IMG/VR virus record: IMGVR_UViG_3300030433_001936
Coordinates: 1-64,000 of that record
DNA: 64,000 nt
Strand: one strand, 5' to 3'
Origin: a virus
Lineage: Duplodnaviria > Caudoviricetes
Shown here: positions 2 through 59,956 of the stretch, piece by piece
Layout: every line of letters begins with the position of its first letter
Position numbering within the stretch: position 1 is the first letter of the stretch
Translations under genes and position numbers: made by a program
The notes under the pieces: generated by a model
Databases searched by the model: none
What the model was told of the DNA's origin: nothing
Seen by the model: the letters and a program-made list of their open reading frames with translations, nothing else

Positions 2-3000
2 CTTTGCTTTTTCTTCGTTGATAGGACCTATGCCGAGTTGATACATGAACGGTCCTGAACCACGAACATTGAGAATGATGACATCCAAATCCTTCTTGTT
101 TCGCATCAACACCCACTTTGGATGTCGTGATTCGCCCTTCATGTAGGTGGAGATTGCATCACGCAACAGTACACCATCGTTGCTTTCGGCTTGGATGTTT
201 TCAATCGCTTGTTCCAATCCTTCATCATCCGTTCTTCGGGTGTTGAATGGTGCGGGCATCAGCACATGTTCACTGCTTTCAAATTGAGTTCGCAATCGCA
301 CGATACGGTCTTTCAGTGGTTCTTCATACAGTTCTTTATGCCCGTGTTCCAACAAATCAATGAAGACGATTTCTTTCTTGTGAATGATTGCATCGGCAAC
401 ATATCGGTCATCATTGGCTGCTACAAGTCCTTTCCGCATATCAGCAGATAACCGTGCTTTTGTTCCATCAGCGAATCGTGCATCAACCTTCTTGCCCTGC
501 TTGTGAACCAACACACGGTATCCATCCCACCATGACGACACTACCCAATCACCGCTAAAGCCACGCAATTGCTTCATATCTTCGTATGAGAAAATGCGAT
601 GTGCAGGTTTGATTGGTGTGATTGTTCCTTTTTCCTTCAATATGTCGGGGTCAGTCAATGACTTCAGCAATGTGGATACGGGGATGTCGTCTTCGCTCAA
701 TTGGAATGCGACACTTTCACCGTCTTGACCCATCTTTTGCTGTTCGGGAATGTCTTCAGCCGATGGTGCAGATGGGTGTATTCTGCTCATTGGTTGGAGT
801 TCGGGGAAGACTGTGCGGAGTTGTTGCATTGGCACGGATAAGAACGGCATTTTGTCAGCGGATGGCATACCGTTGTTGTGCAAGACCTCAATGCCACCTT
901 CCATTCCACTGTGAGATATACCGAATGTGGGCGACATCTTCCATCCGTATTTCATCCGATACCCTGCACTGTTGAACAAACTCATTGGCATTGACCCTGG
1001 TTGTGTTTGATAATCGCCACTGTCAAGCCCTTTGGCGTGTGGGAAATAGATAGATGCCGACGCTTGCATACGGTCAAATCGGTTGGGGTTATCTTCTTCA
1101 TCAACCTCAATCCCATGCACATGGTCATTTTCCCATTCACGGTCTTTGGGTTGCGCTCGCAATGCCCACTCATTGGCTTCCGCCCATAGTGCCAAAGCGT
1201 TCACATGCGCTTGTGAATAATCACCATTTTCGTCAGGTCCGAATGGGTCGGGAAGACCGTCTTTTTCAAACTGTTCACGCACACGCTTTGCCAATGACCC
1301 TGCTACCTTTCCGACCAAATCAACAGTGGATAGATACTTGCTTGCGAAATAGTTGTTGCGTTGAGTTTGGGTTTTGTTTGCTTGTCCCATCGGTGTCATT
1401 GACATGGCTTCGGGAGTGTCTTCAAATTCTTCCATTTGACGATACCAATCTTCGTCCCTTTCGTCTTCGGGGGTTTGCAAGAATGCGTCCATACCCATTG
1501 CTCGTTGATACGGTTTCACTTGACTTTGTGCTGGCATAATGCGGGATTGCAATGCGTCTTGTGAGAAAATGTGCTTCCCCGTTCCACCACAATTCGGGCA
1601 GTCAGGTCTGTCGGGTTCAGCGCTTTCTTCACCACCGTAATCAAACAATGATTTTGGTTTGGGTACTGATGGGTCATTGCCATCATTGCCACGGGAGATG
1701 TCAAACAAATTGGATTTCTTCACATCTTCGGGGTCTAATTTGCCGTCCCCGCCACATACGGGACAATCGGTTTGCCCATCAGCCAATGCTTGTAGTGCTT
1801 CATTGCGGAATTTGAATGCAAATCTGTGTGGGCGTTGACCATCAGGTGTTTGGATTGGTTCAATGTGTTGCCTTCGGGCTAAATCACGAACCATTGATTC
1901 GTCCACAGGACCTGATTCGGGCAATTCATCCGTTGGTTGATACAAGAACCATCCTTCAGGCTCGTTGTCAAGCCACCCTGTTCCGACATCAGACCGATGT
2001 GTTTCGCCAGGGGACATACCAGGGCTTGTTGTTTCCCTTGATGGGTTCAACTCATCAGCGAATGATTCGCTGGCGGGGCGCAGAAGTGGGAAAGCAGGGA
2101 GGTCGTCTTTTTCACGACCAATATCCGCATGCAACATCAATTGACGGACACGGGTTTTGATGTCGGCTTCGGTGTGATTATGCCCAGGCAACACTGCACC
2201 GCCTTGTTCCCGTGCCAATCGGGTCAGTTCTCGTTCCCATGTGTTTGGCGCACCGACCATGTTGCCTTGTGTAATGCCAATCAATGGGTGTTCATCAGGT
2301 GCATCAGCGGGGTGTTCTTCCCATCGTCCCCACAGATTGGCTAACAACGCCTGTGCCTTTTCTTCCCTTCTTCCTGTTCCTTTGGCATTCAATATGTGAT
2401 TTAGTGTGTTGCGTGTCATACCGTAGTGTTGACCCAAATACCCACGGGCATCATTCGGACCTCCTTCAATTCCTTCGCGTTCATCCAACACATTTTGCCA
2501 ATCACCAATCGCTAGAGGTCCCATTGAATATGCCCGTGAAAAGTCATCGTGATATTGCGGGTCATGTGAAATAGCAAGTTGAGGCCAGGATTGGATTTTG
2601 CCATCCATGATGTGGAACGGCAATGCTGACCCTGCTTCCAATGGCAAATCGGACATGAAGCCCACCATGTTTTGCATTTCATTGCGGGGTTGTCCTTCTT
2701 TATTCAATGAAATTTCAAGACCTTGTTCACGGTATTCATCACCCGCAAAGCCACCTTCTTGGTTCAATCTGCCACCCGACTTAGGCCAGATTTTTTCATT
2801 GAATTGTTCGGCAGGGGACAAGCCATCCTTCAATGGGATAACAAATTGAGTTGGAGTTGGTGAATCAGGACTAGTGAATAGACCGTGTTGTTGGTTTTCT
2901 CGCCACACATCGGGGTGGAACATATGATGCAATTCTGCGATTGGTGCAGTTGGGTCATCGGCATGACCACCAGCAGCGTGATGAGGTGCCATGAAGACGG

Positions 3001-4591
3001 CATATGGACTCATTCGCACATCATCGGGGTCGCCACTGCTTTGGTGATACATGTTGATGTATGGTGCGATTCCGTTGCTGATTTGCTTGTGGCGCTCATA
3101 TTCTTGCGCTATTTGTTCCATATATTCCATGATGTAGGCATGTTGATTTTCATTGATGTATCCGTGATGGAGCAAATCGTTGAATTCAGCAATGCTTGAA
3201 AACGCATTGTCATGATGAACATCGTTGTCAAGTGTCAGTTGTAAATCGCCATTTTCGTCTTTCACATGTCGGGGTATGTGTCCGTGCGTATCCAATAGGT
3301 AATCCTTCAGACTTTGCACACCCAATTGGCTTGCTTGTCGGGTGCTGATGAGATGTGGCAGGTCTTCCTTTCGCGACCTTTGTGCCACAAGGAAATGAGA
3401 TTCTTCATGCATGGGGTCGTGAATGAAATTGCCATCATCGTCAAATGTCCCAACGGGGATTTGACCAGCCTGCAACCCTGCCATTGGGATGTCATTTGAA
3501 TACACATGCAAATCCTTCATTGCTTCCATCAATCTGCGTCCTTTGAATGCTTCCTTGACTTTTTCGTTTTGAAAGTCGTAGTTTTGTGATGGGATTGCAC
3601 TCCCTGGCATCGTTTGACTACGAAGACGATGCATCAATTCAGGTCCACCGTATCGCCCTTTCCAATTGCGAAGCAACCAACCAGGGTTGACAAACGGCAT
3701 GCGCTTGTCAGAATTGAAACCGTGTTCACTGATGTGTTGAATGACCGCATCCCTTTCGCTTGGCTTCAACCATTCCAATCCCAATGCGTATCCCAAAAAG
3801 CCCAATGTGTGTGAACCTGAATCGTATGGGTCTAGTGGGTCGGATTCAAGACCTGCCCACACCCGTTTGTATTGGTTGAGATGCATATCACGCTGTTCCA
3901 TTGGTTCAAGGTCTTGCACTTCCTTTGGTTGTGTTTGCAACCATTCATAGAAGTGTTTGGAGTACAATTGTTGTGGGTTCGCCATAGGTCCCTCACCATC
4001 AATCCTACCCAAATGCGATGGTTGATTGTGATACGAATTAGCATGGCGTTTTTCGTGTTGTTCCACTTCGGGGATGAGCCAATCTTTGTGGTGGTTCGTC
4101 AAATTGCCTTCGCTGTCATAATACGGAATCCATGATGATGCAAGTGTATCCACCCATGCGGGTCTTCCCCATTCACTGTTCTTCATGAATGGTGATAACG
4201 ACCACGGGGATATGCCACCATATGCCACTTCGGGATTGGCTTCCGTTTGCGCTGGCCATGTGGAATGTGAAGCACGGGGATTTTCATGACCGCCCGCATA
4301 TTGACGCAGTGTTGTAATCCACGGTGATTTTGCCATTCCCGATTTTTCGGAAAGTGGGCTACGGAATGTGCTGAAATATCCCCCACGCATCCGCTCGTCT
4401 TTGAGAATCCAATCGGATGCTTCGTTGAAAATGCGTTCACTGAAATGGTCAAGTTCCAATCCGTGGCGTTGTGCATTCATTTTGGAGAATTCAAAATTAG
4501 CAGCAGCGTTTTCCAAATCAATGCCATCAATCAATGACTTGTATAGTTCGTGTTTTGCACGAAGGTGGAAATCGTATGCTGAATCTCGCAT
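2..4591 (-). CDS. Giant protein (>=1530 aa, runs off the left edge) with a degenerate ATP-dependent DNA ligase adenylation domain near the window edge
   Basis: ATG at 4591 with GGGGTGAG RBS. The frame stays open to base 2, so the ORF track omits it (no stop codon). Translated by hand: PIKPAHRIF..GDWVVSSWWDGYRVLVHKQGKKV (482-625), YVADAII, FIDLL, DGVLLRDAISTYMKGESRHPKWV, DLDVIIL resemble ligase motifs I, III, IIIa, IV, V and the start of the OB fold. Confidence 0.8.
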   Translation of the reverse strand, partial: MRDSAYDFHLRAKHELYKSLIDGIDLENAAANFEFSKMNAQRHGLELDHFSERIFNEASDWILKDERMRGGYFSTFRSPLSEKSGMAKSPWITTLRQYAGGHENPRASHSTWPAQTEANPEVAYGGISPWSLSPFMKNSEWGRPAWVDTLASSWIPYYDSEGNLTNHHKDWLIPEVEQHEKRHANSYHNQPSHLGRIDGEGPMANPQQLYSKHFYEWLQTQPKEVQDLEPMEQRDMHLNQYKRVWAGLESDPLDPYDSGSHTLGFLGYALGLEWLKPSERDAVIQHISEHGFNSDKRMPFVNPGWLLRNWKGRYGGPELMHRLRSQTMPGSAIPSQNYDFQNEKVKEAFKGRRLMEAMKDLHVYSNDIPMAGLQAGQIPVGTFDDDGNFIHDPMHEESHFLVAQRSRKEDLPHLISTRQASQLGVQSLKDYLLDTHGHIPRHVKDENGDLQLTLDNDVHHDNAFSSIAEFNDLLHHGYINENQHAYIMEYMEQIAQEYERHKQISNGIAPYINMYHQSSGDPDDVRMSPYAVFMAPHHAAGGHADDPTAPIAELHHMFHPDVWRENQQHGLFTSPDSPTPTQFVIPLKDGLSPAEQFNEKIWPKSGGRLNQEGGFAGDEYREQGLEISLNKEGQPRNEMQNMVGFMSDLPLEAGSALPFHIMDGKIQSWPQLAISHDPQYHDDFSRAYSMGPLAIGDWQNVLDEREGIEGGPNDARGYLGQHYGMTRNTLNHILNAKGTGRREEKAQALLANLWGRWEEHPADAPDEHPLIGITQGNMVGAPNTWERELTRLAREQGGAVLPGHNHTEADIKTRVRQLMLHADIGREKDDLPAFPLLRPASESFADELNPSRETTSPGMSPGETHRSDVGTGWLDNEPEGWFLYQPTDELPESGPVDESMVRDLARRQHIEPIQTPDGQRPHRFAFKFRNEALQALADGQTDCPVCGGDGKLDPEDVKKSNLFDISRGNDGNDPSVPKPKSLFDYGGEESAEPDRPDCPNCGGTGKHIFSQDALQSRIMPAQSQVKPYQRAMGMDAFLQTPEDERDEDWYRQMEEFEDTPEAMSMTPMGQANKTQTQRNNYFASKYLSTVDLVGKVAGSLAKRVREQFEKDGLPDPFGPDENGDYSQAHVNALALWAEANEWALRAQPKDREWENDHVHGIEVDEEDNPNRFDRMQASASIYFPHAKGLDSGDYQTQPGSMPMSLFNSAGYRMKYGWKMSPTFGISHSGMEGGIEVLHNNGMPSADKMPFLSVPMQQLRTVFPELQPMSRIHPSAPSAEDIPEQQKMGQDGESVAFQLSEDDIPVSTLLKSLTDPDILKEKGTITPIKPAHRIFSYEDMKQLRGFSGDWVVSSWWDGYRVLVHKQGKKVDARFADGTKARLSADMRKGLVAANDDRYVADAIIHKKEIVFIDLLEHGHKELYEEPLKDRIVRLRTQFESSEHVLMPAPFNTRRTDDEGLEQAIENIQAESNDGVLLRDAISTYMKGESRHPKWVLMRNKKDLDVIILNVRGSGPFMYQLGIGPINEEKAK

Positions 4592-4605
4592 TATCTCACC
4601 CCCAC

Positions 4606-5031
4606 TCATAGGTGGCGAGATAGGTCCTCAACCTTTTTGATGAGATTGCTAACACTATGCGGGTCGTCTTCATGCCATGCACCCAACAGTTCGGACTTCT
4701 TCAGCGCTGCTGGTCGTCCTTCGCCACCTGCTTGATTGAGATGCATGCCCAATGTGGATTCGGTTTGATGGGTGTTGCCACCCGCATGGTAGTTCAAACC
4801 TGGTGGATTCTTATCCACGGTCAATTTCTTTGATACTGTTTCGGGAACGGGCAACGGTTGTTGATTCGTCCAATAGTGTTGAGCGCGAACATTCGTGCCA
4901 CTGACATCTTCAAAATGCACATCATTGTTGCCCGATTCTTCAATCATTTTTTCCAACATCTGTGCTTTTTCAAGCAACTCTTGGACTTCGCTGTTCTCAC
5001 CTGCTTCAACACGGATTGGCTTCATTTTCAT
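4606..5031 (-). CDS. Hypothetical protein (morphogenesis cluster)
   Basis: 141 aa, tightly packed with co-oriented neighbours; no recognised motif. Confidence 0.7.
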   Translation of the reverse strand: MKMKPIRVEAGENSEVQELLEKAQMLEKMIEESGNNDVHFEDVSGTNVRAQHYWTNQQPLPVPETVSKKLTVDKNPPGLNYHAGGNTHQTESTLGMHLNQAGGEGRPAALKKSELLGAWHEDDPHSVSNLIKKVEDLSRHL

Positions 5032-26610: not shown

Positions 26611-27408
26611 TCACGGAAACCTTTCGTCATATGCCTGTTGTGCATCAGCAATCGCTTGCAATGCGCTTTGCTCATAATCACCAGTTATTGCTTCTCGCTT
26701 GTCAGTCATTGCATCACCCTTTTTCCGTGCGTCTGCAATTGCATCCATTTCATCACTATTAGTGCGTCCATGACTGTGTGGATAAAGTGCTAATTGCCTT
26801 CGCAATTTGTTTGGGTTCATATTTGCCAATCTCGGATAATTCTTACTGTATGCTTCTAATGCATCTTCTAGTGCCGTTGCCCATACATTGTTGGACGGGC
26901 TATCGCCCAATGGCACTTGTTCAGTCGTGCGATAACCGCCACGGGATGTCGCAGTTTTGCGTTTATCCATGTCCCCACGAGTCCATCGTCGTGGCACACC
27001 TTCATGTATTGGCAATCTGCTCAATTCATCTTTTTGCTCAATGGCGTTTCTCAAAGCACGACCACGCAGTTTGCCTTTCATCACACTCCATGCCATATCA
27101 ATGGGGTCGCCTTTGACCATCGTTGGCTTTCCACCAACACCTTGCTTTTTACTGCGTTTGCGTTGCGTCATTGCCCGCTTTTCGCCTTTGCTGTGATGCC
27201 GTGCAAGTTTTGGTGTCTTGCTACTGACACGCTTTGATGGTCGGCACTTTGGGTATCCACGCTTGCTTTTGTTCGCTTTACTGCGACCACACGGGGGATG
27301 CGAACCGTCTTTGTTCGTGCGTGATACATCCACCCACTTTTCTTTGAACCAACGATTCAGGTTTTTGACAACCATGACATCTTGGCAACCGCACAATTCA
27401 CCATCCAT
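26611..27408 (-). CDS. Basic phage-type domain (RWFKEKWVD..CGR..YPKCRP) plus internal AW..MK tag
   Basis: LNRWFKEKWVDVS..PCGRS..YPKCRPSKRVSSKTPK, then DPIDMAWSVMK. Confidence 0.7.
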   Translation of the reverse strand: MDGELCGCQDVMVVKNLNRWFKEKWVDVSRTNKDGSHPPCGRSKANKSKRGYPKCRPSKRVSSKTPKLARHHSKGEKRAMTQRKRSKKQGVGGKPTMVKGDPIDMAWSVMKGKLRGRALRNAIEQKDELSRLPIHEGVPRRWTRGDMDKRKTATSRGGYRTTEQVPLGDSPSNNVWATALEDALEAYSKNYPRLANMNPNKLRRQLALYPHSHGRTNSDEMDAIADARKKGDAMTDKREAITGDYEQSALQAIADAQQAYDERFP

Positions 27409-28130
27409 TAACCAAACCTCCGTCTGTCTTTTCTTCGTTCAGCGGCAATCAGTTTGTCCCATTGTTCGGCAGTTTTTATGTTATTCGCTCTTCGCAAATG
27501 TGGATTTCTTGCTCGCAATCCCATAATTTCTCTAAACCGTTGTTCTTTTTGCCGTGGGGTCAATTTGTTGGAAGTCAACGATATTGTACCATCCTTTCCA
27601 ACTGATGTGCGAGTCGGTGAATCAAGTTGTTGTATGATGTCCGCGATGCCCCGCATGGGATGGTCTTCGCTAACTCTTTGACCAAACATAGCAGCAAGCA
27701 TCCCCTTTGCACCTGCGTTTCTATGTTGATGAGCATTGAGGTCATGCATCAATTCTCGGTGTGCTGTAAGTGCTGATTCGGGATACTCCATAATGACGGC
27801 TGGGTGTTCGGTTCGTGCAGTTGCATCTATGTCTTGACTATATTTGCCATATTTACTGTCTCTTAAATCGCCCACCCCTGGTTGGTTATCTGTGGTTGCA
27901 TGACCCCATTCGTGTGCGTTCAATCTCGCCAACGCATTTGCAGTGAATTTGTCAGCGTCAGCGTCAGAAAAGCCCATGTTTCGTCCATAAGGCAAAATCG
28001 CAGCCAAATTGACATTTACCGTATCAGTCCACGGGTCATAATGCCCCGCCCTGTCCCGTCCATCAAACTCCAAATTGTAGTCAGCGTCATCACTTTTCAA
28101 AAATGACCAAGCCGTATCAAATGGGGTCAT
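27408..28130 (-). CDS. Putative zincin-like metallopeptidase with N-terminal AW..LK tag
   Basis: MTPFDTAWSFLK; G.YDP..DTVNVNL; HEWGH followed by TEHPA. Confidence 0.55.
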   Translation of the reverse strand: MTPFDTAWSFLKSDDADYNLEFDGRDRAGHYDPWTDTVNVNLAAILPYGRNMGFSDADADKFTANALARLNAHEWGHATTDNQPGVGDLRDSKYGKYSQDIDATARTEHPAVIMEYPESALTAHRELMHDLNAHQHRNAGAKGMLAAMFGQRVSEDHPMRGIADIIQQLDSPTRTSVGKDGTISLTSNKLTPRQKEQRFREIMGLRARNPHLRRANNIKTAEQWDKLIAAERRKDRRRFG

Positions 28131-28318
28131 TTCTTCTTCCCCTTCCCCTTAAACTTGCCACGGCAGTATTGAACTGCCCAACCATTGGCATAAGCGGAAG
28201 GATAGACCTTGAATTTGCGCTTAGCAGCCGCTTTTCCTGCGGGGCATAACTTCTTTTCCAAATGGTCAAACGCAGCGTTTGTAGCAACACACAAATCGCA
28301 ATTGCCACACCCCGTCAT
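28127..28318 (-). CDS. Small basic phage-type protein (YPSAYAN motif)
   Basis: AKRKFKVYPSAYANGWAVQ. Confidence 0.7.
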   Translation of the reverse strand: MTGCGNCDLCVATNAAFDHLEKKLCPAGKAAAKRKFKVYPSAYANGWAVQYCRGKFKGKGKKK

Positions 28319-28322
28319 GTCA

Positions 28323-28859
28323 TCACCACTTCACTTTGTCTGCCCAATACGCTGCTGACATCGGACCTCGTGCGATGTTCTTGCGGTGTCGTGCTTTGAA
28401 TGACCTTTGCCGTGCCTTTTCCTTCGGTGTCTTTGGATTTGCACCCGCACCTGACTTACCTTGTTGACCAAATCGGATGGTTTTCACTTTGCCACCTGAC
28501 CGTGCCACTACAATGTGCGATTTCTTGCCATGACCTGGTGTGCGCTTCGGTTTGTTGTATCCCGACACACCCGCACGGGCAAGCCGTGGGTCTTTTTTGC
28601 CCTTTGCAAATGACGCATTGATACTCTTTCGGAAACGCTTCATCTTCTTCATTTTGCATCCCGTTTCGGGTGTGCAATCGCACATCCCCATTGATGCAAT
28701 GTCGCATAATTCGTCGTCATCTGACGGATAATGCAGTTGCAATGATTTGTTGGTCGTTTCATTTTCCAACTTGCATTCACCATCGGCACAACCGCATCCA
28801 CGGGCTTTGCCTACGCACCCCGTTTTCAAAAACAACCATGCAGTTTCGTGTGCCGTCAT
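28323..28859 (-). CDS. Tagged protein with Cys-rich N-terminus and basic phage-type C-terminal domain
   Basis: MTAHETAWLFLK; KDPRLARAGVSGYNKPKRTP..IRFGQQG..SFKARH..SAAYWADKVKW. Confidence 0.75.
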   Translation of the reverse strand: MTAHETAWLFLKTGCVGKARGCGCADGECKLENETTNKSLQLHYPSDDDELCDIASMGMCDCTPETGCKMKKMKRFRKSINASFAKGKKDPRLARAGVSGYNKPKRTPGHGKKSHIVVARSGGKVKTIRFGQQGKSGAGANPKTPKEKARQRSFKARHRKNIARGPMSAAYWADKVKW

Positions 28860-28890
28860 CACACTACCCGATGCGAAAGAATGCAATAAA

Positions 28891-29502
28891 CTAATCGTTC
28901 TTCAATAATTGCCATGCAATATCCATTGGCTCACCTTTCATTTGGTCTTGCCACGCCATCCGCTCATCTGCATTCTGAATTCCAAAATCGGGATATTCGT
29001 CAGTTTCATTGAAAACTCTGCTCATGGCTTGCTGATTGTTATCTGTGTTGGGTTGCATGTCAATTGATGTATGACCACGCAAATTCAACTCGTCTAACAC
29101 TTGCTTGCGTTCTTCCGCATGCTCAGGCTTAATCATCCACAACAAATTGCCTTCCAATTCTTCCGTAGTGATGTTAGCATACGGGCGTGGGTGCAATCCC
29201 AACTCCATTTGCCGTTGGCGTTCTATCTGTTCGTCTTTGGATTCTTGTGGTTGGGCATCGTCTTCAACTGCACCAATGCTCAACAACAAATCCAACAAAC
29301 CTTGCATCACTTCGGGTGGCATATCATCATCGTCATCGTCATCCACTTTCAACAAACGATACGCCAATTTCATTGGCTCACTGTAGCGGAACATGGCATC
29401 CTTTTCCGAAGAACTACCCCCTTCACCACATCGTTCTTCGCATATCATCCGCTGATGCGGAATCGCATGTTCTTGACCACAATAAAAACAACTGTTGCTC
29501 AT
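28891..29502 (-). CDS. Acidic hypothetical protein with two AW/AY..LK tags
   Basis: EPMKLAYRLLK and EPMDIAWQLLK. Confidence 0.7.
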   Translation of the reverse strand: MSNSCFYCGQEHAIPHQRMICEERCGEGGSSSEKDAMFRYSEPMKLAYRLLKVDDDDDDDMPPEVMQGLLDLLLSIGAVEDDAQPQESKDEQIERQRQMELGLHPRPYANITTEELEGNLLWMIKPEHAEERKQVLDELNLRGHTSIDMQPNTDNNQQAMSRVFNETDEYPDFGIQNADERMAWQDQMKGEPMDIAWQLLKND

Positions 29503-29517
29503 TTTTATGACCCCTTA

Positions 29518-30267
29518 TCACATTCTTCCTGCCTGTCTTTCTGATTCTGCCCACGCTAACCATCGGTCTAATTCCCGTTGGAAATCTTCGGGGTCAATCG
29601 CCAATGTTGGGTCATGACCCACTGCATTGTTGATGTATTTGATTGCGTCATTCATGTATTGATGCCCGTCAGGGTGGTCGTCCATTATCGCATGATGAGC
29701 GAACTGCAACGGCAAATAGTCGGGCATGTGCTGTTCCATCAATTGACGAAACATGCCAGGATGTTTCTGTTGAAGCGCATCAATCCACCCTTGACCCATA
29801 TCAGTGAAACCATCAAGGAATGGCGAGAACTTCATGTCGGGGTTGCGAGCCAACACATGCGGAAGCATTTCAGCCAAGCCTTCAGCGTATCCACGACCAC
29901 GGACATCTTCATCCACATGTAGTGCTAAATCCCGTTCTGTGCTTATGTCAGGTACAGTTTCTTCCGACAACGGGTGATACACAAGTTCACCATTCGGCAT
30001 AAGCGTTGACCCAATTTCCAAACTCCCACGGTATGTAGGTCCGTATGGAGTGGGCTTTTCGCCAATATGCCCAGTCATTTGCCCACGCTCTTTGTCATGC
30101 TCAAAATAAACGGGAACATCCTTTTTCTCTTCGGGGTCATAGAACTGACCTTCATATTCATCCATGTCGTCATCAGTGTTGACCCGTCGCACGGTTTCGT
30201 GCCGTAGTGGGGCTTTGACGACATGCGTTTTGAGAAGCAACCATGCTTGCTCAAACGCCCCCTGCAT
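29518..30267 (-). CDS. Tagged protein with GNAT-like acetyl-CoA-binding motif
   Basis: MQGAFEQAWLLLK; LHVDEDVRGRGYAEGL resembles GNAT motif A. Confidence 0.55.
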   Translation of the reverse strand: MQGAFEQAWLLLKTHVVKAPLRHETVRRVNTDDDMDEYEGQFYDPEEKKDVPVYFEHDKERGQMTGHIGEKPTPYGPTYRGSLEIGSTLMPNGELVYHPLSEETVPDISTERDLALHVDEDVRGRGYAEGLAEMLPHVLARNPDMKFSPFLDGFTDMGQGWIDALQQKHPGMFRQLMEQHMPDYLPLQFAHHAIMDDHPDGHQYMNDAIKYINNAVGHDPTLAIDPEDFQRELDRWLAWAESERQAGRM

Positions 30268-30347
30268 GGCACACGCTAAGTGCGACTGCCCGATAAACAA
30301 TTCCTTCCAGAAAAATTTTTTTCGCGATAACGCGCGCTGCTAGGAAG

Positions 30348-30775
30348 GGCAAAACTGACGGGTAAAACTGTCCCTCCGCCTATCTGCGGGTAAAACTGAC
30401 GGGTAAAACTGCCACTGCCACCCTCGGTGGCACACTGACTGCACCGCACTGCGGTGGCACTGTCTGAACGGCGCACTGCGCCACTGTGGTGGTGGGTAAA
30501 ACCTCACACACACAGACAAGCACGGGCAGTGCTAGGCACTGCCCTACACATGCGTGTAAGTACCCAACCAACGGTTGGGTAAAACTACAGCGACGGTTCG
30601 CCCAAACCGAATCAGTCGCGCAGGCACAGTGGCTAGTGCCACTGTGAAGCCAGCCCCCTTCATCCCAACCGTATGGTTGGGCAATCTCATTGTCATCCCA
30701 TCTGATACAGGGTAAAACCGTAGGGTAAAACCACCGAACCCTACCCCAAACATCAGGTAAAACACAGGGTAAAAC
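30348..30775 (+). repeat. GGTAAAAC direct-repeat array interleaved with hairpins (origin/terminus candidate)
   Basis: Exact copies at 30361, 30389, 30402, 30495, 30578, 30711, 30724, 30756, 30768, plus GGCAAAAC at 30348; located at the coding-strand switch. Confidence 0.85.
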
Positions 30776-30820
30776 TGCCGACCAAAAGTGAAGGGAAAGT
30801 GATGGGAAATCGCAGTTTGG

Positions 30821-30853
30821 TTAAATACCCCTCAAACAACACCATTTATGGTG
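30821..30853 (+). promoter_or_regulatory. Early promoter cassette TTAAATACCCCTC-N6-CACCAT-TT-ATGGTG
   Basis: TATA-like box plus palindrome, directly upstream of the 30848 gene; one of 10 copies. Confidence 0.8.
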
Positions 30854-32044
30854 AAACAAATGTTGAATACCAAATACGAAGAAACCAACGAAGCATTGAT
30901 TGAAGCGATTACCAACGATTTCCTCGTTGGCTTGTCTGATGACCGAATGGATGATGGCGTTGCCATCATTTCCACATTGGTGCATTGCACCAATGTCCTC
31001 TCTGGCAACACCGAAGGTGATAAGAAACTGGCAGCCAAAGACATCCGTGATGTCTTTGAAACAAAGAAGCGAAGTTATGCCGACCTTGTCGGCATTGCTA
31101 CCGAAGCCCTCAACCAACCTGAAGGTTGGGTTGACCGAATCAATGCCATCCTTGATGGCATGGAAGCCGAAGAAGTCAACGACCCTGTCGTTGAAGAAGA
31201 CAACACCGAAGTGGTGGCATCTGCCACCACCCCTGTTGATGTCCCTGACATCAACGGATTGGTTGCCTCCGCTGTTGCTGAAGCAACAGCACCAATCATG
31301 GCAATGCTTCAATCAGCGATTGAAACCATGAAGACCAACCACAACGCTGTTGTGGTTGTTGATGACCCAACTCCTCAACCGAAGGTTGAAACCCAACCGA
31401 AGGTTGAAGCACCATCCAATCCTTCGGGATTGGATGAAAAGAAGTCCTACGGCAACCCGAAGGGTTGGTCGGACAAAACCCACTACTCGGTTTCTGTTGT
31501 TGCCGACTTCGTCGGAACAAACAAAACCGATGCCAAATACGGAGTATTTGTTTGCCGTGGTCTGACTCCTGAAGAAGCGACCCTTCAGGGTCGGAAGGTC
31601 GTCCTCCGAAGAATCATCCAAACCATTGACAAGGTCAATGGAAACAAAGCAATCACCAAAGCCACCCAATCCGAGGATTGGATGGCGGTTGCTTCGGATT
31701 CCTTCGGAATCACTGATGCTGTGTTGGATTCGTTCTTGACGAATCCCAACAAATTCCAACAACAGTCCCGAAGGACTGGTGAATCCCTTCGTTCCCGTCT
31801 CGGTATCACCGATACCGAAACCTTCCACAACCTCGTTGTGGAATTGATTGATGCCAACCCTCAACCGAAGGTTGCAGCAAAGCCGAAGGCTTCCACCTCA
31901 ACTCTGTTGACCATGAAGACCGAACCAACGGTGCAACCGAAGGTTGCACCTGCGGTTGCCACTCTTGACCCTGACGAAGTCAAAGCGGTCATGGCGACCT
32001 TCGGTATGACCTTTGCTGAGGCAAAGGCTTACCTCACCGAGTAA
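30848..32044 (+). CDS. Hypothetical 398-aa protein encoded by hairpin-tiled DNA (alternative start 30860)
   Basis: Long ORF with its own promoter and terminator; QPKV peptide repeats; no recognised domain. Confidence 0.8.
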   Translation: MVKQMLNTKYEETNEALIEAITNDFLVGLSDDRMDDGVAIISTLVHCTNVLSGNTEGDKKLAAKDIRDVFETKKRSYADLVGIATEALNQPEGWVDRINAILDGMEAEEVNDPVVEEDNTEVVASATTPVDVPDINGLVASAVAEATAPIMAMLQSAIETMKTNHNAVVVVDDPTPQPKVETQPKVEAPSNPSGLDEKKSYGNPKGWSDKTHYSVSVVADFVGTNKTDAKYGVFVCRGLTPEEATLQGRKVVLRRIIQTIDKVNGNKAITKATQSEDWMAVASDSFGITDAVLDSFLTNPNKFQQQSRRTGESLRSRLGITDTETFHNLVVELIDANPQPKVAAKPKASTSTLLTMKTEPTVQPKVAPAVATLDPDEVKAVMATFGMTFAEAKAYLTE

Positions 32045-32052
32045 TCGGTGAA

Positions 32053-32181
32053 CGGGGTTGGCAACCCCGACCCACCTTCGGTGGGACTCGGTTGACCACC
32101 GCCCTTCGGGGCGGTGGTTGACCACTCGTTCTCCTTGTTGGTTTTGGGGGGCAGGGCTATCGCCCTGCCTCCCTTTTTTTT
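32053..32181 (+). terminator. Four consecutive stem-loops ending in hairpin plus T8 (intrinsic terminator / structured 3' UTR)
   Basis: Stems 32053-32069, 32071-32085, 32095-32118 (10 bp, C-TTCG-G loop), 32146-32173 (12 bp with one G-U), then T8 at 32174-32181. Confidence 0.75.
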
Positions 32182-32385
32182 ATACGCGCGCGATTCTCCA
32201 CCCCTCTTGAGGGGCTTCTCCCTCATGCGTGTGTAGGAATCGGTTTGATTCTGCAGTGGTTCTGCACCGATTCTGTATCCAATCCTAGTGGATTGACTAG
32301 TGTTTTGCCGTCTTCTGTGTCATGCTAGTGCATGACACTGCATCCATTTTGATTCAATGGCAGACCAGACCCAGTGGATTCAGTG

Positions 32386-32455
32386 GTTTTACCCAGTGAA
32401 AACGACGATGATTAGCAGGTAAAACAGCAGGTTCACTGCAGGTAAAACTGCAGTG
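32386..32455. repeat. Second GGTAAAAC cluster
   Basis: Inverted copy GTTTTACC at 32386; direct copies at 32418 and 32441, the latter within the hairpin CACTGCAG-GTAAAA-CTGCAGTG. Confidence 0.75.
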
Positions 32456-32719
32456 GGTTGTCGTTTCGTACGACAGTGTCGGCTTAGTGCCTCCACTGCC
32501 ACTCCAACCATACGGTTGGAAACCCTACAGATTCTGGATGACACTGCATCGCCTCCCCGAAACCTGATGTCCCCCATATCAATCGCTGTGGTTGCCCTGC
32601 CGACCACCCATCAGGGTTATCCAAACCCCTACTAGTATGCCGATGAGATGGCATGGATGATTCAGCATGATGATAGTGCGTCCGTAGTGGACGCAGTTGT
32701 TGTGCAGTTTTGCTGTAGT

Positions 32720-32828
32720 GTATTGATATTATTCAGTATTGTATTAAACAATAATAGAGTATATTTATCCTAAAGGATACAGGATACGACCAAAGGTAAT
32801 ACAGTCCAATACGATACAGAATAATATC
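32720..32828. repeat. AT-rich dispersed element, copy B, with inverted partner
   Basis: GTATTGATATTATTCAGTATTGTATTAAACAATAATAG (32720-32757), 32/38 identical to copy A; ATACAGAATAATATC at 32814-32828 is a 14/15 inverted match. Confidence 0.75.
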
Positions 32829-32842
32829 GGGACAACCGCCGA

Positions 32843-32878
32843 TTAAATACCCCTCAACCATCACCATCTTTGATGGTA
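32843..32878 (+). promoter_or_regulatory. Early promoter cassette
   Basis: TTAAATACCCCTC-AACCAT-CACCATC-TTT-GATGGT. Confidence 0.8.
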
Positions 32879-33139
32879 TCAATGGATGAAATCAATGAAA
32901 TGGAAAGGAAGATGGGTGGCTTTGTCATCAGAACGAATCAAAGAAACGAAAAGGTGTTTTGGGTGGTTGGCAATCGCAAAAGGTTGCTGTATCGTCATCA
33001 AATGACCACTGGCAAGTTCTTCAACAAAGACGACAAAGAAATGTCGGCAAAAGCGGTTCGTGAAGCCAAAGCCTTCATTGCTGAAATGTCAAAGCCGAAG
33101 TCGTTGTTCGCTATCAAGTCCGAAGGTGATTCCCAATGA
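32870..33139 (+). CDS. Hypothetical early protein
   Basis: 89 aa directly behind the promoter cassette. Confidence 0.7.
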   Translation: MMVSMDEINEMERKMGGFVIRTNQRNEKVFWVVGNRKRLLYRHQMTTGKFFNKDDKEMSAKAVREAKAFIAEMSKPKSLFAIKSEGDSQ

Positions 33140-56895: not shown

Positions 56896-57656
56896 CCAAG
56901 ATGAATGTTGCAAAGAACGAACTTGTTCGTTTCGTTGGTGGCTTCGGACCTGGTGTGAAAGACCTCAAACTCAAAGTGGAAAGCAATCAGTTGAAGGCGG
57001 GGGTTGCATTGTCAACCCACTTCCTTTCTAAAGCAATCGTTGTTGAACAGATTGAAGCGGGTGATTTGATTATCAGCGACATCGCCAAGTTCAACAATTT
57101 CTTGAAGGCTGCTCAAGGCACGGATGTGCAACTCCAACAGAACCTAGCGGGACGCAACACCGAGTTGCGTATCACATGTGGGAAGTCGGTGTTCACCATC
57201 CCGTCCACCAATGAGGTGGCGAGTTGTGCTTCGCTTGAGGCTGCTGGCAATCTCGTGAAGGCATCCGCTGAATCCAATTGGAAGGAGTTCGGTGGCAACG
57301 CACTGTCGTGCTACGCCATCGTGGATGTTGTTGATGTTCAAGCGGTTGCACCGTTGGGTAAGGTCGTTGGAACAGACAACCCATACCGATTGGTGTTGAC
57401 CAACAAACAGAAGCAAGGTGTCATCAGCACGGGGAAGCATCACAACGGACAAGTGTTTCACAAATTTGATTTGATTGACCCGTCCGTTGATGAAACGATT
57501 CAAACACAGTTCGGACCTTGGTTTCCCGAAGTCCTCGGCACATTGCCGTTGGGTAAAGCGGAGATTTACACAGGTGAGAATGCCGTGCTTGTCTTCAACC
57601 ATCAAGACAAAGACTGTCTGCTTGTTGTGATTGACCAACGACCCGATGAGGAGTGA
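56892..57656 (+). CDS. pcn: DNA sliding clamp (PCNA-like)
   Basis: About 254 aa with a repeated helix/strand pattern, directly upstream of PolB and downstream of RFC. Confidence 0.6.
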   Translation: MTKMNVAKNELVRFVGGFGPGVKDLKLKVESNQLKAGVALSTHFLSKAIVVEQIEAGDLIISDIAKFNNFLKAAQGTDVQLQQNLAGRNTELRITCGKSVFTIPSTNEVASCASLEAAGNLVKASAESNWKEFGGNALSCYAIVDVVDVQAVAPLGKVVGTDNPYRLVLTNKQKQGVISTGKHHNGQVFHKFDLIDPSVDETIQTQFGPWFPEVLGTLPLGKAEIYTGENAVLVFNHQDKDCLLVVIDQRPDEE

Positions 57657-59956
57657 TTCACATGATTGTGGATACGCTCTATGATGGGGGCATCGTAGGG
57701 AGATACCGTGATGAAGAGAACAACCGTGTGGTCATGGGCGACACTGGCTTCAAGGATTATTTCTTTGTGGATAAGGAAGAAGCGTTTGTCGTCAATCTCA
57801 ATGCGGAGTGGAAGCGTGAGTTTTCTCATGCTGACATTGTGTTCAATGGATACGAATCGGTTGATGGTGTTGCATTGGCGCAGGTCATCTGCGACCACCC
57901 ATACGACAAGACACGCATGAAGAAGTACTTCACAAAGACATGGGAAGGCGACATACCGTTTGCCGACAGGTGGATGATTGACAATATGTACGAGCAACCC
58001 AATTGGAATCCACGCAAGTGTTGGTTTGACATTGAATGGAATCCCGATGACAACAATGACTTCACTACATGTTGGGCTGGACTTGACTCATACACCAACG
58101 AAGCAACATGCTTCGCATGGCGTGAAGGTCAAGATGGATATGAAAAGGTTGAGCGGGACAACTACACTCTTCACATATACACATGTGAGGAAGAACTCCA
58201 CGAAGCCGTCATTGATTACATCGTCAGCCATGACTTTGACATGCTGATTGCCCACGCTGCTATGTGGGCTGACATGCCACACATGGTCAAGCGATTCAAG
58301 AACATCAAACGCATCTCCCCGTATGGTGAAGTGCGAAGGGTGAGGGAAGGCAACGATGGATACCGTCATGATGACCAACCCATCGTGGGTCGCCTTGTCT
58401 TTGACACCGCTGCTCGCGCTGGTGATGGCACGGGCTTTGAACGGGTGTGGATGGATAGTGGCAATGGTCAGTTCCCATCACGCAAGTTGAATGAGATTGG
58501 TGTGCATCTTGGATTGGGTGAAAAGGACGACATTGATTTAACCAACGATTGGCGAGAAAATTTCTTCCGCTATTGCGACTACTGTGTGCGAGATGTTGAG
58601 TTAATGAAGGACATTGATGTGTATCTCCATGCGACTGACTTCTTCATGAACATGGTTCGTTTCTGTGGTGTGTCGTTCACATCCACATTTGAAGTGGGCA
58701 AGTTCGCACGGGGATTGGTGAACCGAAGGACGGAACTCAAGTTCCCTTCACGGGCAAAGGACAGAAGGCGTGAGCGTGGTTCAGTACAAGGTGCTACGGT
58801 CATGTCGCCAACGCCAGGTCTGCACAACGGTGTGGCTGTTTTGGATTTCAAGGGATTGTATCCTTCAATCATGTTGGGGGACAACCTATGTTGGACGACA
58901 TATCGTGATGAACCAACGGAAACCACACGCACACTATCCAATGGCACACACTGGTGTCAAGAGAACAAAGGTATCCTTCCCCGAATCGTTGAGTATCTGT
59001 TTGAAGAACGACAGGAGTTGAAGCGACAAGGCAACCGCATTCTTGAGAAGGCGGTCAAGCGTGTGATGGCTTCGCTGTATGGTCTGGTGAATGAAACACT
59101 TGGTCATGGCATGGCGGATGAACGCATTGGTGCGACCATCACGGCACAAGGTCGCTACTCATTGGATGTGTTGAGGGCAAAGTGTGAAGCCATCGGACAC
59201 CCCGTACTCTTCGGACACACGGACAGTTGTTTTATTCTGTGTCGTAAGGATGATGTTGGAAGGGTCGCACAAGCAGTGACTGATGTTATTCAAGACGCTA
59301 CGGGCAACAAGAAATTGTTTGCGGAAGCGGAAGCGTGGATGCCATTGTGGTTCTGCGGTGATGTCAAGAACCGATACGCAGGTCTGATTGACTGGCCTGT
59401 TGAAGACGCTGGCAAATTGAAAGTGTCGGGCTTTGAAATGAAGCACAGTTCAACACCACCATTGGTTCGCGACATCCAAAAGCAGGTATTGATGAGCGTG
59501 GTGCAGGGTGATACCGAATGGGAAACCACCGCCTTTGTGAAATCACACATGGACGCATTGCGAAACGGGGATGTACCCGTTGAGGACATCTCCATCATCA
59601 CACGGTTGTCAAAGGACATTGAACCTGCACCCGCATACAAACACAACCCCGAGAAGCATTACCCTATTACTGCGGGTGGGTATGCGAAGGCTGCTCGCTT
59701 TGCGAACTGGTACAACGGGGGTCAATTCAAGAAGGGCGACAGTGTGCGTTGGGTCTATGTATCCAACAACATGCTGACTACCCATGATACGGATGTGATT
59801 GCATACGATGACCCGAAGGATTTGGATGCATTTGAAATAGATATTGAGGGTGTCATCAACAAATCGGTGCGGAAGAAACTCCGACTGATTTACGATGTAC
59901 TCGGATGGGATTTGAACAAAGCGTTGGATAAACACCAACCAAAAACATACTGGTGA
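57653..59956 (+). CDS. polB: Family B DNA polymerase
   Basis: ExoI FDIE, ExoIII YCVRD, DFKGLYPSIM, KRVMASLYG, FGHTDS, KNRYAG, GFE. Confidence 0.95.
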   Translation: MIHMIVDTLYDGGIVGRYRDEENNRVVMGDTGFKDYFFVDKEEAFVVNLNAEWKREFSHADIVFNGYESVDGVALAQVICDHPYDKTRMKKYFTKTWEGDIPFADRWMIDNMYEQPNWNPRKCWFDIEWNPDDNNDFTTCWAGLDSYTNEATCFAWREGQDGYEKVERDNYTLHIYTCEEELHEAVIDYIVSHDFDMLIAHAAMWADMPHMVKRFKNIKRISPYGEVRRVREGNDGYRHDDQPIVGRLVFDTAARAGDGTGFERVWMDSGNGQFPSRKLNEIGVHLGLGEKDDIDLTNDWRENFFRYCDYCVRDVELMKDIDVYLHATDFFMNMVRFCGVSFTSTFEVGKFARGLVNRRTELKFPSRAKDRRRERGSVQGATVMSPTPGLHNGVAVLDFKGLYPSIMLGDNLCWTTYRDEPTETTRTLSNGTHWCQENKGILPRIVEYLFEERQELKRQGNRILEKAVKRVMASLYGLVNETLGHGMADERIGATITAQGRYSLDVLRAKCEAIGHPVLFGHTDSCFILCRKDDVGRVAQAVTDVIQDATGNKKLFAEAEAWMPLWFCGDVKNRYAGLIDWPVEDAGKLKVSGFEMKHSSTPPLVRDIQKQVLMSVVQGDTEWETTAFVKSHMDALRNGDVPVEDISIITRLSKDIEPAPAYKHNPEKHYPITAGGYAKAARFANWYNGGQFKKGDSVRWVYVSNNMLTTHDTDVIAYDDPKDLDAFEIDIEGVINKSVRKKLRLIYDVLGWDLNKALDKHQPKTYW

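What the first reader, a model, noticed from the sequence alone, without database searches (positions are those of the whole stretch)
30848..32044. Protein-coding gene tiled end to end with about 32 perfect short hairpins
Seen: non-identical perfect inverted repeats recur roughly every 35 nt through the whole ORF. Stems of 8 bp or more: 30951-30969, 30974-30996, 31036-31058 (CAAAGACATC-CGT-GATGTCTTTG), 31143-31161, 31176-31194, 31211-31230, 31235-31255, 31271-31290, 31336-31358, 31413-31436 (CATCCAATCC-TTCG-GGATTGGATG), 31623-31641, 31726-31746, 31800-31818, 31823-31843, 31930-31950. About 17 further stems of 4-7 bp occur, many with GAA or TTC loops (CAACC-GAA-GGTTG appears four times). That is 15 stems of >=8 bp in 1.2 kb, against a rough chance expectation below 0.1. 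The frame stays open for 398 codons with its own promoter and terminator, so protein and structure are both encoded. I saw nothing this dense in other genes. Inference: this is the first gene after the strand switch. The array could make a nuclease- or guide-resistant mRNA, a dual-function RNA, or a ssDNA/cruciform platform for genome entry, origin firing or packaging. A neutral alternative is palindrome-perfecting template switching near a terminus. I know of no described system like this.
Basis: partly seen in the sequence, partly recalled or inferred. Interest (0 to 1): 0.92.

Follow-up and report, generated by a model that had tools for sequence, protein, structure and literature searches.

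The report
Hairpin-tiled gene in iteron-flanked viral module
A real, conserved virus protein gene and its two non-coding flanks are packed with about fifty short perfect DNA palindromes built for stable hairpins. Evolution has kept them across the whole gene family, most likely as part of a replication or early-control region, a layout not described for viruses.

Summary
ORF 30848-32044 (likely start 30860) holds 29 perfect hairpins with stems of 6 bp or more, 16 of them 8 bp or more. Synonymous-codon shuffles give 0.84 and codon permutations 0.15. Other genes have 0-2 per kb against 13 per kb here.

The gene is real:
- dN/dS is 0.27-0.48 and codon position 3 diverges most.
- It belongs to an orphan family of about 25 metagenomic proteins with no known fold.

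Hairpin density persists in homologues, though it thins in the most distant ones. 48 of 215 pairs show two-sided changes, and some hairpins are replaced by others.

The hairpins are not confined to the gene. They fill a 2.2 kb module (30.36-32.52 kb) where the two gene blocks diverge. The module is bracketed by GGTAAAAC iterons and CAACC-N3-4-GGTTG palindromes, both conserved in every lineage.

The design is strictly Watson-Crick with no G-U excess on either strand. Loops are 3-4 nt and closed by 5'C-G3' in 38 of 49 hairpins, against 31% in the genome background.

My best reading (about 0.4) is a DNA-level hairpin array in an origin or early-control module. The rivals are an armoured mRNA and template-switch maintenance.

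This scan has noted similar hairpin-tiled early genes in unrelated phages. I did not check those notes.

The parts
30311..30325 (.). A5-T7 tract (AAAAATTTTTTT) at the left edge of the module, next to a CGCG-rich stretch
   Evidence: Read directly. Kept in relatives in alignment A5. A role as an unwinding element is inference only.
30361..30775 (+). Left iteron field. Nine direct GGTAAAAC repeats (30361, 30389, 30402, 30495, 30578, 30711, 30724, 30756, 30768) are interleaved with seven perfect hairpins (30416-30681), including CCCAACC-GTAT-GGTTGGG
   Evidence: 12 of the window's 15 copies lie in the module. One search lists the hairpins. In one search the iterons are invariant across six lineages, and the hairpins are kept with different stem sequences. 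Searches show the same layout in L012, L014-L016, L018-L020 and L141.
30821..30853 (+). Promoter-like box TTAAATACCCCTCAAAC followed by the 5' hairpin CACCAT-TT-ATGGTG, which covers a GGTG Shine-Dalgarno-like box
   Evidence: five copies, all on the + strand and all just upstream of genes (30821, 32843, 34095, 39222, 44588). Related boxes occur in L011 and L012. No sigma-70 consensus match. Function not tested.
30860..32044 (+). Protein gene of 394 aa (398 aa if read from ATG 30848) from an orphan family, tiled with 29 perfect hairpins of 6-11 bp
   Evidence: for the ORF and hairpin counts. Homologues. dN/dS 0.27-0.48 with codon position 3 > 1 > 2. Covariation. AlphaFold model. No Pfam, PHROG or fold match.
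32034..32181 (+). 3' end of the transcription unit. Four GC-rich hairpins (32034-32125, including a 10-bp C(TTCG)G hairpin) are followed by an intrinsic-terminator-like 12-bp stem and a T8 run (32146-32181)
32201..32520 (.). Right non-coding flank. It holds further perfect hairpins, three GGTAAAAC iterons (32386 inverted, 32418, 32441) and a second CCAACC-ATAC-GGTTGG palindrome (32503-32520)
   Evidence: The same downstream iteron pair and palindrome occur in L012, L014, L015, L016 and L141.

Best explanation
The 2.2 kb between the leftward and rightward gene blocks (about 30.36-32.52 kb) is one conserved control module. It reads: GGTAAAAC iterons plus a CCAACC-NTAT-GGTTGG palindrome, then a single gene, then the same elements again. 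Throughout the module, in coding and non-coding parts alike, about half of all bases sit in short perfect palindromes. These have 6-11 bp Watson-Crick stems and 3-4 nt loops closed by 5'C-G3', so either DNA strand can snap into stable mini-hairpins.

I read this as a DNA-level device of a replication-origin or early-control region. A protein binds the iterons and palindromes. That protein may be the product of the embedded gene, as in lambda ori-in-O or the P1/F 'iterons-rep-iterons' replicons. Negative supercoiling from divergent transcription, or initiator-driven unwinding, lets the palindromes extrude. Small C-G-closed hairpins are known to do this at phage N4 early promoters. The extruded hairpins would hold the region open and structured.

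The gene has had to evolve inside this constraint, so its codons serve both the protein and the hairpins.

Shown here: the hairpin array, its conservation and covariation, its design rules, the module layout, and that the gene codes for a protein.

Inferred: that the structure acts as DNA, that the module is an origin, which protein binds, and whether extrusion happens.
For: 1. The hairpin excess is real and specific to the module.
2. It is kept in homologues: 11-18 stems of 8 bp or more per gene down to about 39% protein identity, and about 3 times the local background at 27%.
3. On an 8-sequence alignment, 80% of cells are paired against 28-43% for slid partners. 48 pairs change on both sides, against 16-31 slid and 25 +/- 3 shuffled (0 of 500 shuffles reach it). 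Paired sites diverge half as fast as unpaired ones.
4. The same design fills the non-coding flanks upstream of the promoter-like box and downstream of the terminator. There, homologous positions keep a hairpin with entirely different stem sequences.
5. Stems are strictly Watson-Crick. Perfect stems far outnumber one-mismatch stems (16:2, 18:1, 11:0). G-T is not enriched at stem ends on either strand (11% against 16% in the control, p = 0.28). Both strands fold equally well as ssDNA, at -7 to -10 kcal/mol per hairpin.
6. The loop-closing pair is 5'C-G3' in 38 of 49 hairpins (20 of 21 triloops, 10 of 11 tetraloops). The genome background is 31%, and 38% of all stem pairs in the module are C-G. 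The bias is kept in homologues. This is a stability signature and reads the same on both strands.
7. Hairpins are spread evenly over folded, conserved protein parts and disordered linkers (25-31 per kb). Residues in stems are as conserved as the others.
8. Iterons and the CAACC...GGTTG palindrome are conserved in every lineage and bracket the gene.
9. The strand switch and the cumulative GC-skew minimum lie at 31-32 kb.
10. Small hairpins extrude at physiological superhelicity at N4 promoters (PMC4496689).
Against: - There is no direct evidence that the DNA extrudes or that this is an origin.
- The GC-skew minimum is confounded with the change of gene orientation.
- The protein has no recognisable Rep or initiator fold, and no clear AT-rich unwinding element beyond a 12-bp A/T tract.
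- Hairpins in single strands would be expected to hinder helicase loading rather than help it.
- I could not show that the flanks are untranscribed.
- Hairpin density falls in the most distant homologues (L019 has 4 and L020 has 2 stems of 8 bp or more), which is odd for an essential origin feature.
- Every sequence feature I take as DNA-level is also what a conversion-type mutational process would leave behind.
Confidence: 0.4

Rival explanations
1. RNA-level function. The hairpins armour the messenger of the first early gene, and a leader or trailer. They could act against endonucleases, Rho-type termination, or RNA-guided defences (type III/VI CRISPR, antisense RNA). They could also pace translation, or make the RNA a scaffold or decoy.
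For: The gene has its own promoter-like box and a strong terminator, so most hairpins would lie on one transcript. RNA MFE has z = -12. Two C(UUCG)G loops are present. 5'C-G3' closure also stabilises RNA loops (my own knowledge). The hairpins are conserved and covary. Earlier notes of this scan describe hairpin-tiled early genes in other phages (unchecked).
Against: There is no G-U tolerance. Only 2 of 23 one-mismatch stems carry a sense-strand G-T, and G-T is not enriched at helix ends. C-G exceeds G-C in stems, the reverse of typical RNA stems (PMC8794818). Triloops dominate over tetraloops. Hairpins of the same design lie upstream of the promoter-like box and downstream of the terminator. 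No Rfam family matches.
Confidence: 0.25
2. No function. The palindromes are created and kept perfect by replication template switching or another arm-to-arm conversion. This process is especially active at this site, for example next to an origin or in a region that is often single-stranded. The palindromes persist as quasi-selfish passengers in a tolerant gene, as proposed for hairworm mitochondria.
For: The perfect/imperfect pattern is binary. Two-sided changes occur even between sequences 5-10% apart, including transversions with no wobble intermediate. Stems are strictly Watson-Crick and symmetric between strands. Hairpins turn over and shift. Density is graded among lineages. Template switching is known to create and repair perfect stems (PMC8794818), and the same argument was made for coding palindromes (PMC6649704).
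Against: The 78-95% 5'C-G3' loop-closing bias and the narrow 3-4 nt loop sizes are thermodynamic optima that a copying error has no known reason to favour. The edges of the domain are sharp and coincide with the module: neighbouring genes a few hundred bases away are at background. Hairpins are as dense over the conserved, folded core as over linkers. Hairpin positions in the non-coding flank are kept while their sequences are replaced. The trait is retained across a family down to 27% identity.
Confidence: 0.22
3. The palindromes act as double-stranded binding sites for dimeric proteins, as a dense operator or centromere-like array, and never extrude.
For: The CAACC-N3-4-GGTTG family is sequence-specific. 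Nine of its 13 genome copies lie in the module, in the gene and in both flanks, and it is conserved in all lineages. Iterons show that the module is a protein-binding region.
Against: Apart from the CAACC family the stems share no sequence. Homologous hairpins also change their whole stem sequence. That fits selection for pairing, not for a recognition sequence. A loop-closing-pair bias has no meaning in duplex DNA.
Confidence: 0.08

Closest known systems
[quoted passage not shown] 2019, PMC6649704)
   Same: Perfect inverted repeats lie inside functional protein genes, and both arms encode conserved residues. Repeats are almost always perfect, gains and losses are dynamic, and the function is unknown. 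Conversion was proposed as the maintaining force.
   Different: Those repeats are long (up to 284 bp), scattered over several genes of an animal mitochondrial genome, and not tied to iterons or a control region. Here they are 6-11 bp stems with 3-4 nt C-G-closed loops, about 35 nt apart. They are confined to one gene plus its flanks in a tailed virus, and kept across a whole protein family.
Origins embedded in or bracketing the initiator gene: lambda ori inside gene O; P1 and F plasmid 'iterons-rep-iterons' replicons (my own knowledge)
   Same: Clusters of short direct repeats sit on both sides of, or inside, one gene at a key regulatory point. The coding sequence carries cis-acting DNA signals.
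   Different: Those origins have a few sequence-specific sites, not about 50 sequence-diverse hairpins. The protein here matches no Rep or O family. Origin activity is untested.
Phage N4 early promoters: supercoil-extruded DNA hairpins read by the virion RNA polymerase (PMC4496689)
   Same: Hairpins have 5-7 bp stems and 3-nt loops of unusual stability. They extrude from duplex DNA at physiological superhelicity early in infection.
   Different: N4 has three promoters with a fixed consensus (-11 purine, -10G, -8G, +1C) upstream of genes. Here there are dozens, with no consensus beyond the closing pair, mostly inside a gene. No N4-like polymerase was found.
Template-switch-made and -maintained hairpins (Monttinen and Loytynoja 2022, PMC8794818)
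   Same: Perfect stems, multi-base and two-sided changes, and turnover.
   Different: That work describes a mutational mechanism in RNA genes. It does not predict one 2 kb hot spot, a loop-closing C-G bias, or conservation over a protein family.
Rickettsia palindromic elements inserted in frame in protein genes (cited in PMC6649704; my own knowledge)
   Same: Palindromic DNA is tolerated inside coding sequence.
   Different: Those are copies of one mobile 100-150 bp family that decay with time. Here the stems are mutually unrelated and kept perfect.

Membership tests
Coding palindromes (Nematomorpha type) | Perfect inverted repeats inside a functional protein-coding gene, with both arms coding | tested here: met
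   16 stems of 8 bp or more lie in an ORF with dN/dS 0.27-0.48 and conserved residues inside stems.
Coding palindromes (Nematomorpha type) | Near-binary perfection, with few imperfect repeats | tested here: met
   Perfect versus one-mismatch stems: 16:2, 18:1, 15:2 and 11:0 in four lineages.
Coding palindromes (Nematomorpha type) | Long arms (tens to hundreds of bp) scattered over many genes of the genome | tested here: not met
   The longest stem is 11 bp. The excess is confined to one 2.2 kb module.
Iteron-type replication origin with embedded or adjacent initiator gene | Clustered direct repeats (iterons) conserved among relatives | tested here: met
   GGTAAAAC occurs 9 times upstream and 3 times downstream. 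It is invariant in six lineages and present in all nine loci with flanks.
Iteron-type replication origin with embedded or adjacent initiator gene | AT-rich DNA unwinding element | tested here: inconclusive
   Only a 12-bp A5T7 tract at 30311-30325. The module has 50% G+C.
Iteron-type replication origin with embedded or adjacent initiator gene | Gene product belongs to a known initiator family (Rep, O, DnaA-like, Orc/Cdc6) | tested here: inconclusive
   No Pfam or PHROG hit. No fold match: best VIA Z 4.7 for the whole model and 3.0 for the core domain.
Iteron-type replication origin with embedded or adjacent initiator gene | Replication starts there | not testable with these tools
   Only a GC-skew minimum at 31-32 kb, which coincides with the strand switch.
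N4-type hairpin promoters | Short stem with a 3-nt loop, an unusually stable DNA hairpin | tested here: met
   21 of 49 loops are 3 nt, and 20 of those 21 are closed by C-G.
N4-type hairpin promoters | Conserved recognition bases in loop and stem, and a fixed start site | tested here: not met
   No information content at any position except the closing pair.
N4-type hairpin promoters | Virion RNA polymerase encoded by the virus | tested here: inconclusive
   No PF00940 match in the 74.8 kb record, which is about 62% complete. The control genomes did not match either.
Known structured RNA family (Rfam 15) | Match to a covariance model | tested here: not met
   Only four chance-level hits (E 0.07-0.8), far below the gathering scores.
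Mobile palindromic repeat families (REP/BIME, RPE) | Many near-identical copies dispersed in the genome | tested here: not met
   The stems are mutually unrelated. The only repeated family, CAACC...GGTTG, has 13 copies, 9 of them inside the module.

The most novel reading that the evidence does not exclude
Arrays of sequence-free DNA mini-hairpins (C-G-closed tri- and tetraloops on perfect 6-11 bp stems, roughly every 35 nt) are a distinct, undescribed kind of cis-acting element of tailed-virus origin or early regions. What is selected is foldability of either strand, not sequence. The element is strong enough to be written over a conserved protein gene. It would be recurrent in unrelated viruses, as earlier notes of this scan suggest.
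Probability: 0.3. Interest if true: 0.9.

Novelty: new variant of a known kind. Interest (0 to 1): 0.78.

Why it matters
If the hairpins are functional, one 1.2 kb stretch is under two full-length constraints at once: a folded protein and a tiled nucleic-acid structure. That would make it one of the densest dual-coding cases known. It would also point to a structural, sequence-independent signal in virus replication or early expression that ordinary annotation cannot see.

If the hairpins are maintained by conversion alone, this is a clean microbial model for how template switching can overwrite a conserved gene, a question left open by the hairworm mitochondria.

In both cases the module gives a testable candidate origin, with iterons, palindromes and an orphan protein, for a clade of about 105 kb uncultured freshwater viruses whose family B polymerase is closest to those of archaeal tailed viruses.

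Tried and rejected
- Rfam scan of 29.5-33.5 kb: only chance-level hits.
- Pfam and PHROGs on the protein: nothing.
- Two AlphaFold models (whole protein, and core domain 195-340) searched against PDB by Foldseek, BFVD, and VIA-align wide twice: no convincing fold.
- ESM Atlas: no usable hit.
- blastn of the module against cultured phages: no match.
- Scan of IMG/VR for iteron pairs (GGTAAAAC-N4-5-GGTAAAAC): 119 loci. None encodes a relative, and none has iterons next to a hairpin field. These are chance matches or unrelated tandem repeats.
- Search for prophage copies in 185,000 species genomes: none, so there is no host assignment.
- No tRNA genes and no T7-type RNA polymerase domain in the record.
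Transcription is therefore untested.
- An apparent excess of A-C over G-T next to stems suggested wobble on the minus strand. It vanished against a proper local control.
- TA depletion (obs/exp 0.20) is only a stronger form of a bias shared by the coding DNA on either side of the module (0.39 and 0.41).
- L007-L009, found with the linker peptide, match only 48 low-complexity residues. I did not use them.
Full report
**Observation**

A centre-based search for perfect inverted repeats (loop up to 8 nt) finds 52 stems of 8 bp or more in the 64 kb window. 24 of them lie in 30000-33000.

ORF 30848-32044 holds 29 non-redundant stems of 6 bp or more, 16 of them 8 bp or more.

| Control | Mean stems of 6 bp or more | Mean stems of 8 bp or more | Maximum of 8 bp or more |
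|---|---|---|---|
| Observed | 29 | 16 | - |
| 300 synonymous-codon shuffles | 5.4 | 0.84 | 5 |
| 300 codon-order permutations | 2.3 | 0.15 | 2 |

The RNA MFE is -480 kcal/mol, z = -12 against synonymous shuffles. Eleven other genes of the window have 0-2.1 stems of 8 bp or more per kb, against 13.4 here. 54% of the gene's bases lie inside hairpins, against 15% elsewhere. 15 of 28 centre-to-centre distances are 30-39 nt.

**Context**

The window is the first 64 kb of a 74.8 kb IMG/VR virus record. Identical or near-identical proteins occur on contigs of about 105 kb.

The genome has a portal, an HNH-bearing protein, a SNF2 helicase and a family B DNA polymerase. The polymerase's best matches among cultured viruses are haloarchaeal tailed viruses, at about 22% identity. 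The host is unknown and may be archaeal.

Genes left of 30300 are on the minus strand and genes right of 30848 are on the plus strand. The cumulative GC skew has its minimum at 31-32 kb.

**The gene is real**

Twelve close homologues (48-100% identity) and thirteen more distant ones from a profile search form an orphan family of about 390-420 residues. The family has invariant residues, mostly in the C-terminal half.

dN/dS is 0.27-0.48, and divergence follows codon position 3 > 1 > 2.

AlphaFold, using the family alignment, gives four parts:
- a helical N-domain, residues 15-106;
- a disordered acidic linker, 107-193;
- a confident alpha/beta core, 200-336, with pLDDT 83-93;
- a small two-helix C-terminal motif.

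No Pfam, PHROG, Foldseek, BFVD or VIA-align match is convincing.

The likely start is ATG 30860. It lies behind GGTGA, the same arrangement as at four other copies of a promoter-like box, TTAAATACCCCTCAAC plus a CACCAT..ATGGTG hairpin. It also aligns with the start of homologues. An intrinsic-terminator-like stem plus T8 ends the unit at 32146-32181.

**Conservation of the hairpins**

I fetched DNA for ten homologous loci.

| Protein identity to the window | Stems of 8 bp or more per gene |
|---|---|
| 83-92% | 15-18 |
| about 48-54% | 12-14 |
| L018 (about 39%) | 11 |
| L141 | about 17 |
| L019 (about 31%) | 4 |
| L020 (about 28%) | 2 |

L020 still has 10 stems of 6 bp or more per kb, against 2.9 per kb in its 10 kb of flanks.

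In a codon alignment many hairpins sit at homologous places with both arms changed. Examples:
- ATGCCGAC/GTCGGCAT becomes ATGCTGAC/GTCAGCAT.
- CATCC..GGATG becomes CAACC..GGTTG, a transversion with no wobble intermediate.

Others are replaced. The conserved peptide GITDA is a palindrome, GGCATCA-C-TGATGCC, in six lineages and has a 12-bp stem in L018. In the window a synonymous GGA instead builds the neighbouring GATTCC-TTC-GGAATC hairpin.

I projected the window's 215 pairs on an independent MAFFT alignment of eight sequences:
- 80.3% of cells pair, against 28-43% for partners slid by 1-3 columns.
- 48 pairs change on both sides, against 16-31 slid and 25 +/- 3 in shuffles (0 of 500 shuffles reach it).

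Paired sites diverge half as fast as unpaired ones among close relatives (0.05-0.07 against 0.10-0.16).

**The array belongs to a module, not just a gene**

Hairpins of the same kind fill the 550-bp upstream and about 480-bp downstream non-coding flanks.

These flanks carry GGTAAAAC nine times (30361-30768, partly in pairs 12-13 bp apart) and three times (32386 inverted, 32418, 32441). Only three other copies exist in the window.

The palindrome CAACC-N3-4-GGTTG has 9 of its 13 genome copies in the module: three in the flanks and six in the gene, where it encodes QPKV-type linker motifs.

Every lineage with flanking DNA, including the most distant, shows the same order. It runs minus-strand block, then 5-11 iterons plus CAACC-RTAT-GGTTG, then the hairpin gene, then (where downstream flank is held) one to three iterons and in five loci a second palindrome, then the plus-strand block with SNF2.

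In the flank alignment the iterons are invariant. Several hairpins keep their place with unrelated stem sequences, for example CACAGTGGC-TAGT-..., CTGATTAC-AGTCA-... and GCAGTTTCAC-TGTA-....

**Design rules**

1. Loops are short: 3 nt in 21 hairpins, 4 nt in 11, and 1-2 nt in 11 of 49. The background distribution is flatter, spread over 1-8 nt with a mild peak at 3 nt.
2. The loop-closing pair is 5'C-G3' in 38 of 49 hairpins (20 of 21 triloops, 10 of 11 tetraloops).
   - The genome background is 31%, and 38% of all stem pairs in the module are C-G.
   - No other position carries information.
   - The bias holds in homologues, for example 24 of 27 in L017 and 15 of 21 in L011. By inspection it holds in 13 of 18 flank hairpins.
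   - C-G closure is the known optimum for compact DNA and RNA loops (my own knowledge). It reads the same on both strands.
3. Stems are strictly Watson-Crick.
   - Perfect stems far outnumber one-mismatch stems (16:2, 18:1, 11:0).
   - Random substitution at 5% would leave 7 perfect and 4 imperfect.
   - Only 2 of 23 imperfect stems carry a sense-strand G-T.
   - The first pair beyond a stem is G-T in 11% and A-C in 20% of cases, no different from local controls at 16% and 19% (p = 0.28).
   - Both strands fold equally well as ssDNA.
4. Hairpins are as dense over the conserved core (25 per kb) as over the disordered linker (31 per kb). Stem residues are as conserved as the others (0.53 against 0.54; core 0.65 against 0.62).

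**Interpretation**

The data show a nucleic-acid-level constraint, or an active maintenance process, laid over a real protein gene and its control region.

Three features point to DNA rather than the messenger:
- the design continues outside the likely transcription unit;
- there is no wobble signature on the sense strand;
- the features are symmetric between strands.

The iteron/palindrome bracket at the divergence point resembles replicons whose origin lies in or around the initiator gene (lambda O; P1 and F; my own knowledge). Small C-G-closed hairpins are known to extrude at physiological superhelicity at N4 early promoters (PMC4496689).

I therefore favour, at about 0.4, a structured origin or early-control module in which unwinding or divergent transcription lets the palindromes extrude.

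The RNA reading (about 0.25) keeps the promoter-to-terminator logic and the very low folding energy. It lacks any RNA-specific signature, and I could not test expression.

The neutral reading (about 0.22) rests on template switching, which creates and repairs perfect stems (PMC8794818), and was proposed for the only published coding-palindrome case (PMC6649704). It fits the binary perfection and the fast two-sided changes. It does not predict the closing-pair bias, the sharp module borders, the even tiling over conserved residues, or positional conservation with sequence replacement.

A pure duplex-operator reading (about 0.08) fits only the CAACC family.

**Novelty**

I found no description of such a module in viruses.

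The closest published case is the hairworm mitochondrial coding palindromes. Those are much longer, not localised, and not linked to iterons.

Earlier notes of this scan report hairpin-tiled early genes in unrelated phages, including the mycobacteriophage Patience gp47 family, a jumbo phage, and others. I did not verify them. If they hold, the phenomenon is recurrent and deserves a systematic survey.

Noticed in passing
window 30821, 32843, 34095, 39222, 44588 (+ strand): Five copies of a 16-nt box, TTAAATACCCCTCAAC, each followed by a CACCAT..ATGGTG hairpin and an ATG about 10 nt further on. It looks like a virus-specific promoter with a 5' hairpin that hides the GGTG ribosome-binding box. 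TTAAATA could also be an archaeal TATA box. Related boxes occur in L011 and L012.
   Followed up: partly
window 27408-30300 (- strand ORFs): Consecutive minus-strand proteins start with, or contain, a shared peptide of the type (D/E)xAWxxLK: TAWSFLK, TAWLFLK, IAWQLLK, QAWLLLK. The same tag appears in the minus-strand block of L141. Other readers of this scan noted it as a possible capsid-targeting or processing signal.
   Followed up: no
window 57653-59956: The family B DNA polymerase finds its best cultured-virus matches in haloarchaeal tailed viruses (HRTV, HSTV-2, HCTV), at about 22% identity over 83-97% of its length. The host of this freshwater virus clade may be archaeal. No prophage copy of the hairpin gene exists in 185,000 species genomes.
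   Followed up: partly
window 2-4609 (- strand, runs off the record): A very large ORF of more than 1536 aa has no PHROG match. Its only Pfam hit is a weak ATP-dependent DNA ligase domain at residues 1413-1499.
   Followed up: no
L115:1361-2571 (unrelated IMG/VR contig found by chance): Fifteen perfect 7-8 bp hairpins with 0-6 nt loops (mostly 2-4 nt) lie within 1.2 kb. They cover a small gene (1290-1709), the stretch after it, and an intergenic region with a terminator. This may be another, milder hairpin-rich early region.
   Followed up: no
L100:4656-5124 and L040:9228-9384: Tandem arrays of identical small palindromes in a giant-virus MAG fragment and in another viral contig. These are repeats of one unit, unlike the sequence-diverse array studied here.
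   Followed up: no
window 30524-30544, 30625-30646, 32280-32295, 32317-32338: Four flank hairpins have TAG or TAGT loops (…GC-TAG(T)-GC…), so the palindrome centre is CTAG. This may be a sub-family with its own binding protein, or a restriction-type site.
   Followed up: no
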